Assembly (NCBI GenBank): GCA_036012475.1
Contig: DASCPI010000012.1
Span: forward strand, 3,934 to 67,933
Length of the DNA: 64,000 nt
Reading direction: 5' to 3'
Source of the DNA: Candidatus Pelagibacter sp.
GTDB taxonomy: Bacteria; Pseudomonadota; Alphaproteobacteria; Pelagibacterales; Pelagibacteraceae
In this document: positions 10,019 through 13,991 of the stretch, one piece after another
How the letters are laid out: each line of letters starts with the position of its first letter
Position numbering within the stretch: the stretch's first letter is position 1
Program-made: the position numbers and the translations under genes
The notes under the pieces: generated by a model
Told to the model about the DNA's origin: nothing
Seen by the model: the letters and a program-made list of their open reading frames with translations, nothing else
Database searches by the model: none

Positions 10019-10471
10019 TTATCTATTATTAATTATCATCCGAAATGGAATCATGGATGAACGATTAAATTTATGTTGTTTATAAAATTTTTGTGCTCGT
10101 ATATTTATTTTATCTGTAAGTAAAGTAATTCGTTTGCATCCTTTCTCGGTTGCATATTTTACGGCATGATCTAATAGCATTGAACCGATCCCTAACTCTC
10201 GTTCGTTAGGAGAAACAACCATGTCTTCAAGTAAAGCAACTCGTTCGCCTAATGCTGTTGATACTGTATACAAAAGTATGACCATTCCAATTATTTTTTC
10301 GTTTTTCTTGGCAATAAAAATATTACCGCTATTATTATTGTTGAGTATCATTTCTAGTCCACGACTTTGCGTTTCATGATCGGGTTTAAACTCAACTTCT
10401 TGAGAAAACAGATAATCAAGAAGAGTGCACAATACAGGAATATCTGACGTTGTAGCTATTTCTATTTTCAT
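10019..10471 (-). CDS. GNAT family N-acetyltransferase
   Basis: LEDMVVSPNERELGIGSMLL acetyl-CoA motif A; AQKFY. Confidence 0.88.
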   Translation of the reverse strand: MKIEIATTSDIPVLCTLLDYLFSQEVEFKPDHETQSRGLEMILNNNNSGNIFIAKKNEKIIGMVILLYTVSTALGERVALLEDMVVSPNERELGIGSMLLDHAVKYATEKGCKRITLLTDKINIRAQKFYKQHKFNRSSMIPFRMIINNR

Positions 10472-10542: not shown

Positions 10543-10679
10543 TAATTGAGTATTTTTATTTGAACTCAATTATTGAGAAGGGGGTCGCTCTTAAAGCGAA
10601 AGCTCCTAAGAGCTCCCCTATAAATGCCTCGTAGGCAAATCCATAATAATGGATCTCTTTTTTTACTAACTACTCAATT
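10543..10679. ncRNA. Candidate multi-hairpin structured RNA (strand and class unknown)
   Basis: GC-rich patch with five perfect short stems, a following T7 run and a 9-bp outer inverted repeat (details under findings). Confidence 0.6.
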
Positions 10680-10701
10680 CACAATTTATTAATTATACCA
10701 A

Positions 10702-10742
10702 CTAAGTATAAGGTGGTGATAATTTCATAAACGCACCTCCTT
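10702..10742 (-). promoter_or_regulatory. Perfect Shine-Dalgarno (AAGGAGGT) plus 8-codon ORF MKLSPPYT; possible leader peptide
   Basis: SD at 10742-10735, 6-nt spacer, ATG at 10728, TAG at 10704-10702. Confidence 0.45.
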
Positions 10743-10903
10743 TGTAGTAAATTAATGCTATCATTATCAAACTGAAAAAGATTGATTGAAATCAATTATT
10801 TAAATGTTAAATATTGTTATAATTAATCCTATAAACTAATGCCGAGTTTCTGGCAGCAGCTATAAAAGGTGTCCGACTTTTTTTTTGACTTTGATTTATC
10901 TCT

Positions 10904-10960
10904 CTAGTTGCAAGTTATCTCACACAATCCTATAGCCAAGATTCCTAAAAGCTTTTTCAT
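10904..10960 (-). pseudogene. Signal-peptide-like gene stub MKKLLGILAIGLCEITCN*, containing repeat copy 2 (10922-10957)
   Basis: ATG 3 nt after the NnrU stop; basic N-terminus and hydrophobic core, then an early stop. Confidence 0.5.
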
Positions 10961-10963
10961 AAA

Positions 10964-11515
10964 TTAAAAAATTGCCATCCCAGCAATATATTTATGAAAA
11001 TAAACTATGATAACATAGACAAACAAACCAATAATAACAACCATAACATCTTTGGTTGAACTATAATTTACAGAGCTGTTAACCGTTAAAACTTTTTTAG
11101 AAAAAATAATGTCAATTAAAGCGTATAATCCAAAAGAAGCAAACAACAGGATAGATCGCAAATCACCATTAGCAATCAGATGGACAAAAGACCAAATGAT
11201 TATTCCAATAAGCATAGGATGTTTAGTAAATTTTTTGATGTTCGTTTGCATATTTGTAGCAACAAGCAAAACTATAGAAATTGGCATCAACATTAATGCT
11301 ATTGCTTTACTGTAAGGTAAAGGCTCCCATATCGGATAAAAATGTGCGTGACTAAATCCATAAATAATAAACAAAAGCCCAACTAAAGAAATTAATGAGA
11401 ATAGCCCTTTGTATTTGTTCTCACCAATTTTATTAATCAAAATTTTTTTTAGAGGAGAAATTGGAACCAAATGAATAATAAAAAAAATTATGATTCCTAA
11501 TATAAGAAAATTCAT
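10964..11515 (-). CDS. NnrU family membrane protein
   Basis: YKGLFSLISLVG, KHPML and HLIANGD motifs. Confidence 0.85.
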   Translation of the reverse strand: MNFLILGIIIFFIIHLVPISPLKKILINKIGENKYKGLFSLISLVGLLFIIYGFSHAHFYPIWEPLPYSKAIALMLMPISIVLLVATNMQTNIKKFTKHPMLIGIIIWSFVHLIANGDLRSILLFASFGLYALIDIIFSKKVLTVNSSVNYSSTKDVMVVIIGLFVYVIIVYFHKYIAGMAIF

Positions 11516-13914: not shown

Positions 13915-13932
13915 AACTTTTATAAAAAAACC

Positions 13933-13985
13933 AGGGTATTTAAACAAATTGTGTGCCCCACATACGTCAAAGCACTAAAAAGGAT
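13933..13985 (+). ncRNA. SAM-V riboswitch overlapping the bhmT ribosome-binding site
   Basis: gggt-atttaaac...ttgtgt-gccc...agcactaaaaagga fits the SAM-V consensus; ends just before the ATG at 13992. Confidence 0.85.
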
Positions 13986-13991
13986 AAAAAA

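What the first reader, a model, noticed from the sequence alone, without database searches (positions are those of the whole stretch)
10543..10679. Candidate novel structured RNA with a three-way junction and alternative outer pairings
Seen: AGGGG(10579-83)/CCCCT(10615-19) encloses TCGCT/AGCGA (10585-99) and AGCTC/GAGCT (10601-14). TGCCT/AGGCA (10625-37), ATCCAT/ATGGAT (10639-54) and a T7 run follow. AATTGAGT at 10544-51 can pair with either 10564-71 or 10672-79. This occupies a ~490-bp gap in a window where most gaps are under 100 bp. I do not recognise it as a tRNA or a known riboswitch. Inference: a small RNA (plus strand, ending at the T run) or a cis switch 5' of the GNAT operon (minus strand).
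Basis: partly seen in the sequence, partly recalled or inferred. Interest (0 to 1): 0.72.

Follow-up and report, generated by a model that had tools for sequence, protein, structure and literature searches.

The report
SAR11 sORF-2 micro-gene RNA (PPDT)
These hairpins are the back half of a conserved, free-standing mini-gene of the ocean bacterium Pelagibacter, published in 2019 as 'sORF-2' with no known function: a very strong ribosome-binding site, an 8-codon reading frame and three hairpins that likely hold ribosomes rather than switch a neighbouring gene.

Summary
The element lies on the minus strand at about 10748-10579.

It is not in Rfam 15, but it is the sORF-2 motif of Stav et al. 2019 (PPDT peptide, SAR11, same neighbours). 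This scan reported it before in another genome.

Covariation supports two of the hairpins. The three-way junction (3.7 kcal/mol above the best fold) and the outer AATTGAGT pairings (1 of 54 homologs) are not conserved. In 46 of 54 homologs a convergent gene ends right behind the element, so a GNAT switch is unlikely.

Added here: a sigma70-like promoter just before the SD, presence in 94 of 151 SAR11-order genomes, and metatranscriptome contigs confined to a homolog in 3 of 8 runs, one of them a 122-nt cycle. Function is inferred only: most likely a ribosome-holding RNA.

The parts
10755..10763 (-). Predicted extended -10 promoter element (TG-n-TAGCAT). The -35 is poor in the window; predicted start near 10748
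   Evidence: Sequence. The closest relative L053 has TTGAAA-17-TAATAT at the same place. 38 of 54 homologs carry TTG[AC]nn-16/18-TAnnnT, against 4.9% of shuffles. Inferred, not mapped in this genome.
10735..10743 (-). Very strong Shine-Dalgarno site (AAAGGAGGU)
   Evidence: Pairs with the SAR11 16S tail at -13.2 kcal/mol; the best of 689 crude gene calls of 100 aa or more in this genome is -11.0, and 0 of 689 have AGGAGG
10702..10728 (-). Micro-ORF MKLSPPYT-stop (TAG); family consensus M-x(1-6)-PP[DE][TI]-stop. The window has Tyr for Asp
   Evidence: an in-frame ATG in 54 of 54 non-redundant homologs (49 by script, 5 read from the printed rows); PPYT also in 7 of 11 metagenome loci of this subtype
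10711..10718 (-). Pro-Pro codons (CCACCU), which can pair back on the SD with one central mismatch
   Evidence: RNAalifold consensus helix of nearly invariant pairs; probability about 0.65 in the window fold and 0.3; above 0.5 in only 10 of 54 homologs, while the same bases pair downstream in 30 of 54
10671..10708 (-).
   Evidence: Pair probabilities 0.75-0.98 in the window; weaker or different in other members of the subtype
10657..10670 (-).
   Evidence: linker composition across homologs A 863, T 437, G 187, C 187
10637..10656 (-).
   Evidence: 99.6% of cells paired in 37 homologs (much of it fixed by my search pattern); 4 of 7 pairs change on both sides once distant homologs are included (alignment fitted to the model)
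10625..10637 (-).
   Evidence: Pair probability about 1 in the window; a 3-5 bp hairpin of varying sequence in the single-sequence folds shown; not in the RNAalifold consensus and not counted for covariation
10579..10619 (-). Hairpin H3: one long stem with a 1x3 internal loop and a C(UUUC)G cap; likely terminator or 3' end
   Evidence: Helices 99.5% and 95.4% paired; 41 double-sided changes over the whole model, 0 of 500 shuffles as high. In two distant homologs it is a plain hairpin followed by U6 (L197, L198)
10544..10571 (.).
   Evidence: Only in the window and two metagenome copies identical to it over the printed stretch (L157, L162); missing from 9 other full-length loci of the subtype, one more is truncated
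10019..10471 (-). GNAT acetyltransferase gene, about 105 nt downstream on the same strand; a neighbour, not a fixed partner
   Evidence: Pfam PF00583, E 8e-20; replaced by a pentapeptide-repeat gene or another gene in close relatives

Best explanation
It is the window's copy of the SAR11 sORF-2 motif, a free-standing minus-strand RNA gene of about 170 nt that likely works by loading a ribosome and keeping it there. Shown from sequence: an unusually strong SD, a 5-10 codon ORF kept in frame and ending Pro-Pro-(Asp/Glu)-(Thr/Ile)-stop, a rare stop context, an A-rich spacer and hairpins H1-H3. Inferred: a sigma70 promoter starts the RNA a few bases before the SD; ribosomes initiate efficiently, slow at Pro-Pro-Asp and again at a UAG-C stop, and so dwell on the RNA; H1-H2 protect it or bind a protein; H3 ends transcription and is usually shared with a convergent gene. 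The peptide would be a by-product, and the output would be titration or storage of ribosomes (or of EF-P or a release factor). Identity as sORF-2 is about 0.97; the confidence below is for the mechanism.
For: Identity: Stav 2019 supplement text and Table S1. Frame kept in 54 of 54 homologs while N-terminal length and residues vary freely, so translation is selected but most of the peptide is not. SD stronger than that of any of 689 gene calls in a genome where only 24 of 689 have even GGAG. TAG/TAA followed by C in 45 of 54 homologs against 27 of 689 genes. PPD was found only among pausing PPX motifs in E. coli lacking EF-P (PMC4140641, passages); EF-P is present in 5 of 5 genomes. No fixed downstream gene, no Hfq in 5 genomes, no mRNA target above shuffles. 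In homolog L037 the promoter predicts a start at 2418-2419, and the X10 contig's joint returns to 2419. High-depth contigs confined to the element in X6, X7 and X10.
Against: No translation or stalling was measured. With EF-P present PPD may not pause. The window has PPY, and two distant homologs end PPA or PPT. The first Pro codon is never CCT or CCC (0 of 53, against 45% genome-wide), so the Pro-Pro may be an RNA-level constraint (pairing with the SD). That weak termination follows from a C after the stop is recalled from E. coli work, not tested. The RNA evidence is from contigs of a homolog, which cannot rank expression or show strand; 4 of 8 runs were flat (X1, X8, X11, X19) and X9 had no cover over most of the element. 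Homologs are related, so counts are not independent. At least two closed Pelagibacter genomes (G219, G350) show no match.
Confidence: 0.42

Rival explanations
1. Dual-function base-pairing sRNA, as Stav et al. suggested. The anti-SD-like Pro-Pro segment or the linker would pair with target mRNAs when no ribosome covers it, so translation of the micro-ORF would switch the sRNA off.
For: Free-standing and conserved. The Pro-Pro codons resemble the 16S anti-SD and have nucleotide-level constraints. Two alternative folds of the 5' half are predicted.
Against: Best duplex with any of 689 start regions was -14.6 kcal/mol, worse than all 30 shuffled seeds (-16.8 to -23.0; genome 77% complete, one seed tested). 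SD sites are rare in this genome. No Hfq in 5 genomes.
Confidence: 0.25
2. The 5-10 aa peptide is the product and acts in trans through its C-terminal PPDT; the hairpins only stabilise and end a tiny mRNA.
For: Strong SD, frame kept, synonymous variation at Asp (GAT/GAC), Thr (ACT/ACA) and stop (TAG/TAA) codons, conservative Asp/Glu change.
Against: Length varies from 5 to 10 aa and the N-terminal residues are free. Three conserved hairpins and a fixed stop context exceed what a plain mRNA needs.
Confidence: 0.17
3. Attenuator-like cis element: ribosome behaviour on the leader would control read-through past H3, into GNAT in this genome or as antisense into the convergent gene elsewhere.
For: Leader peptide plus hairpins is the layout of an attenuator. 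In the window's subtype the next gene is on the same strand wherever one can be read. The U tract after H3 is weak in most Pelagibacter copies.
Against: No antiterminator pairing between the ORF region and H3 in the consensus. Downstream genes are unrelated and 46 of 54 are convergent. Even in the subtype the next gene changes, and lies about 35 to 300 nt away.
Confidence: 0.12
4. A plus-strand RNA with a three-way junction, ending at the T7 run and switching between outer pairings.
For: The pairings exist and the plus strand folds at z -3.7 to -3.8. The hairpins followed by a T run could end convergent transcripts in other genomes.
Against: Junction not favoured or conserved, outer repeats private to this genotype, strand tests favour minus. 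No plus-strand gene leads into the element in the window.
Confidence: 0.03

Closest known systems
sORF-2 motif (Stav et al. 2019, BMC Microbiol 19:66, PMC6429828; Fig. 6a, Table S1, supplementary text)
   Same: SAR11-only; short ORF with conserved PPDT next to hairpins; diverse flanking genes that point toward it; the listed neighbours (3-hydroxyisobutyrate dehydrogenase and SMR upstream, DUF952 and cytochrome c convergent) all recur in my homologs.
   Different: The window's copy reads PPYT and has a same-strand GNAT gene behind it. The parts of the paper I read give no promoter, start site, expression data or mechanism. I could not see the figure itself.
Ribosome-mediated attenuators and arrest leaders (TrpL, TnaC, MgtL; recalled)
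   Same: Short leader ORF with a strong start, followed by hairpins; Pro codons or a slow stop as the likely sensor.
   Different: No regulated downstream gene and no conserved antiterminator.
Dual-function sRNAs (SgrS/SgrT, rnTrpL/peTrpL; recalled; review PMC12310071 seen as a search listing only)
   Same: One small transcript with an ORF and structured RNA, free-standing.
   Different: ORF far shorter; no Hfq in 5 genomes; no target found.
SAR11_0636, rhtB, pntA, bablM motifs (Meyer et al. 2009, PMC2704228, parts 2-4 of 8 read)
   Same: SAR11 intergenic structured RNAs; SAR11_0636 has a three-stem junction and variable neighbours.
   Different: No Rfam match to any of them in the window or in 15 homolog loci; their descriptions mention no ORF. 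That paper's Table 1 lists a 335-bp gap between SAR11_0785 (+) and qacH (-) with no motif named, which by gene order (L033) is probably this element.

Membership tests
sORF-2 motif (Stav 2019) | Short ORF with a conserved PPDT | tested here: met
   Window MKLSPPYT (one change); the nearest relative L053 reads MKLSPPDT; PPDT in most homologs
sORF-2 motif (Stav 2019) | RNA hairpins next to the ORF | tested here: met
   H1 and H3 supported by pair counts, H2 by single folds
sORF-2 motif (Stav 2019) | Confined to SAR11 | tested here: met
   All 56 titled loci with the full unit are Pelagibacter, Pelagibacteraceae or Pelagibacterales; the 24 titled loci without it are other taxa. 0 of 150 other genomes drawn from the class with model R1, which also missed one SAR11 copy that R2 found
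sORF-2 motif (Stav 2019) | Diverse flanking genes, often pointing at the element; named neighbours | tested here: met
   46 of 54 convergent within 60 nt; DUF952, cytochrome c', SMR and 3-hydroxyisobutyrate dehydrogenase family confirmed by Pfam. The window itself is an exception.
sORF-2 motif (Stav 2019) | Match to the authors' alignment or consensus drawing | not testable with these tools
   Figures are not held and the motif is not among the Rfam 15 hits
Transcription attenuator | A regulated gene downstream on the same strand, conserved across members | tested here: not met
   5 of 54 same strand, with different genes
Transcription attenuator | Antiterminator that competes with the terminator | tested here: not met
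   None in the consensus fold; H3 forms in the single folds shown
Riboswitch or any Rfam 15 family | Covariance-model score at the gathering threshold | tested here: not met
Hfq-dependent base-pairing sRNA | Hfq in the host and a pairing target | tested here: not met
   Hfq 0 of 5 genomes, control rings in 5 of 14; no target above shuffles
Arrest peptide | Ribosome stalls on the ORF in a sequence-dependent way | not testable with these tools
   Needs toeprinting or Ribo-seq

The most novel reading that the evidence does not exclude
SAR11 makes an abundant RNA of about 122 nt that begins at its own Shine-Dalgarno site, loses its 3' hairpin, is closed into a circle and traps 70S ribosomes at a Pro-Pro-Asp-Thr-stop minigene: an RNA-based ribosome store in a genome that otherwise hardly uses SD sites. 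The circle rests on one contig in one metatranscriptome (run X10, joint 2540 to 2419 on homolog L037, depth 546) and may be a library artefact such as template switching at the GGGG that precedes the joint.
Probability: 0.08. Interest if true: 0.85.

Novelty: new member of a known kind. Interest (0 to 1): 0.36.

Why it matters
SAR11 genomes are among the most streamlined known, yet most Pelagibacter genomes searched (83 of 107) keep this roughly 230-nt unit, promoter included, while its neighbours change. It was flagged in 2019 and I found no follow-up in the held library. If it is a ribosome-holding RNA it would be a new form of translational control in the most abundant marine bacteria. The anatomy found here makes that testable with a toeprint and a Northern blot. 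As a discovery it is not new.

Tried and rejected
Rfam, window and 15 homolog loci: only chance-level hits at the element. tRNA/tmRNA: none. Consensus scan: no terminator-like site, and promoter-like sites not above shuffles, 8 against 5.0 +/- 2.2. Repeat or MITE: no second copy in this 77%-complete genome, and the would-be terminal repeats are private. Phage origin: 0 hits for two exact patterns in viral contigs. Hammerhead ribozyme: considered by eye, the core motif (recalled) is missing. Stop-codon read-through or recoding: stop type varies (TAG, TAA, TGA) and the stop-to-H1 distance keeps no frame, 22/15/10 over the three phases in the 47 of 54 parsed. Rho-loading linker: C equals G, no C-rich bias. 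mRNA target scan: negative. Of the 63 BLAST-type matches I kept 11 places in 10 other genomes; the rest that I looked at were AT-rich chance matches. Runs X1, X8, X11 and X19 were flat over the homolog and X9 lacked cover over most of it; that RNA cover stops before H3 is a missing-cover observation and may come from poor priming in a strong hairpin. Papers: 'sORF-2'+'SAR11', 'PPDT'+'Pelagibacter' and 'psRNA'+'Pelagibacter'+'metatranscriptom' gave 0 papers; 'PPDT'+ribosome+stop codon+peptide gave one unrelated listing. These searches cover main texts of the held library only, so supplements and subscription papers may hold more. Passages of PMC5069720, PMC9976891 and PMC11890864 did not bear on the element. 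The nhmmer and aragorn steps timed out.

Full report
Observation. The 492-nt gap between GNAT (10019-10471, minus) and NnrU (10964-11515, minus) is the largest of 64 in the window. Both strands fold far better than shuffles. Rfam 15 has no family here; its only gathering-level hit in the window is a SAM-V riboswitch at 13925-13988.

Homologs change the boundaries. A DNA search of 301 genomes of the genus gave 11 real places in 10 other genomes among 63 mostly chance matches. 87 of the 119 carry a PP-x-x-stop ORF upstream. All 56 of these that show a title are SAR11, and the 24 titled loci without the ORF are other taxa. A covariance model matched 94 of 151 genomes of the order: 83 of 107 in the window's genus, 5 of 5, 2 of 2, 2 of 2 and 1 of 2 in four other genera, and none in five genera holding 32 genomes. 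A first model found nothing in 150 other genomes drawn from the class, but it also missed one SAR11 copy, so its reach is limited. Two exact patterns found nothing in viral contigs. The tallies include one no-match genome flagged unpublished.

Structure and strand. On 37 sequences under 93% identical, the consensus is H1 and a long H3 with a 1x3 internal loop: 97.8% of cells paired and 41 double-sided changes, with 0 of 500 shuffles as high. My search pattern fixed most of H1 and the 5' arm of H3, so invariance there is not evidence; the 3' arm of H3 was free. With six distant homologs included, 13 of 21 pairs change on both sides (that alignment is fitted to the model). H2 appears in single-sequence folds but not in the consensus. 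The junction lies 3.7 kcal/mol above the hairpin in the window, and no homolog samples a multiloop above 2%. The outer repeats occur together only in the window's genotype. The minus strand is favoured by consensus energy (-23.2 against -14.9) and by 63 G-U against 8 A-C cells.

The micro-gene. Of 160 loci examined, 157 parsed and 54 were non-redundant. All 54 have an ATG in frame with the Pro-Pro and the stop, with peptides of 5-10 aa (49 by script, 5 read from the printed rows). Distant copies read MSPPET, MSPPEI, MNPPA and MNPPT. 38 of 54 have a sigma70-like promoter whose -10 ends 7-16 nt before GGAGG, against 4.9% of shuffles. The SD pairs with the SAR11 16S tail more strongly than that of any of 689 crude gene calls; a 75-aa ATP synthase c-like gene below my length cut-off also has AAGGAGG. 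The stop is TAG or TAA followed by C in 45 of 54, against 27 of 689 genes. The first Pro codon is always CCA or CCG, which points to an RNA-level constraint as well; these codons can pair with the SD or with bases after the stop.

Context. In 46 of 54 homologs a convergent gene ends within 60 nt of H3; 3 have a convergent gene further off and 5, the window among them, a same-strand gene. The convergent genes are unrelated: DUF952, a hexapeptide-repeat protein, aminotransferase, cytochrome c', sodium:solute symporter, methyltransferase, SOUL, FolD, a photolyase-related protein. In the window's own subtype (L053 and 11 metagenome loci) the next gene is on the same strand where one can be read, but it changes between GNAT, a pentapeptide-repeat gene and a 394-412 aa gene.

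Expression. I could test only a homolog (L037, element 2416-2589) against contigs of 8 of the 22 runs listed. In X6 and X7 (one study) and X10 (another), short contigs confined to the element have depth 96-546 against 5-18 for neighbouring contigs. X1, X8, X11 and X19 are flat, and X9 lacks cover over most of the element. X6 and X7 show what I recall as Illumina adapter sequence joined at 2427, and X7 also at 2542. X10 has one contig that closes a 122-nt cycle from 2540 to 2419, and 2418-2419 is where the promoter predicts the start. Contig depth cannot rank genes or give strand, so this is a hint of a discrete RNA, not proof. The cycle may be a library artefact.

What is known. Stav et al. 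2019 (PMC6429828; I read section 7, selected passages, part 1 of 4 of Table S1 and part 1 of 4 of the supplementary text) describe sORF-2: 802 examples in SAR11, a short ORF with conserved PPDT beside hairpins, attenuator-like but with diverse flanking genes pointing at it, possibly a trans-acting sRNA plus sORF. Every feature I could test is met. This scan reported the same family in another genome. I found no follow-up in four searches of the held library.

Mechanism. Nothing ties the RNA to a downstream gene, Hfq is missing from 5 genomes and no target beat shuffled seeds. What is conserved is what sets how often a ribosome loads and how long it stays: the SD, the frame, Pro-Pro-Asp, which in E. 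coli lacking EF-P occurs only among pausing motifs (PMC4140641, passages), and the stop context. All functional steps are inferred.

Verdict. Interest 0.36.

Noticed in passing
window 13925-13988 (+): SAM-V riboswitch (Rfam RF01826, 50.3 bits) at the start of a homocysteine S-methyltransferase gene; known for SAR11.
   Followed up: no
window 10904-10960 (-): Short frame MKKLLGILAIGLCEITCN-stop right behind NnrU; resembles the start of the 169-aa pentapeptide-repeat gene in L152 and has weak look-alikes elsewhere in the genome; probably a decayed gene that accounts for part of the long gap.
   Followed up: partly
window 10840-10890: Second GC-richer patch in the gap followed by T9 on the plus strand; no Rfam hit; possibly another gene remnant.
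   Followed up: no
L037 2419-2540 (run X10): One contig closes a 122-nt cycle from inside the GGGG at the foot of H3 back to the predicted start site, depth 546: circular RNA or template-switch artefact.
   Followed up: partly
L053 1-2792, L153, L156, L158, L160: The closest relatives of the window's copy sit among genes that do not look like typical SAR11 genes to me (a 394-412 aa protein starting MTNKTIEIMAPAGS, an outer-membrane-like protein, an ABC ATPase); L158 also has an NnrU-like gene. Island cargo or another host; not tested.
   Followed up: partly
G147, G217, G310, G347, G348, G379, G383: These genomes hold two copies of the element at distant places, of two sequence types where I read both (G147: PPDT and PPEI).
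   Followed up: partly
whole genome G000: SD use is low: GGAG before 24 of 689 and AGGAGG before 0 of 689 crude gene calls. The 16S tail in four relatives reads GGAUUACCUCC, one change from the motif I searched with.
   Followed up: partly
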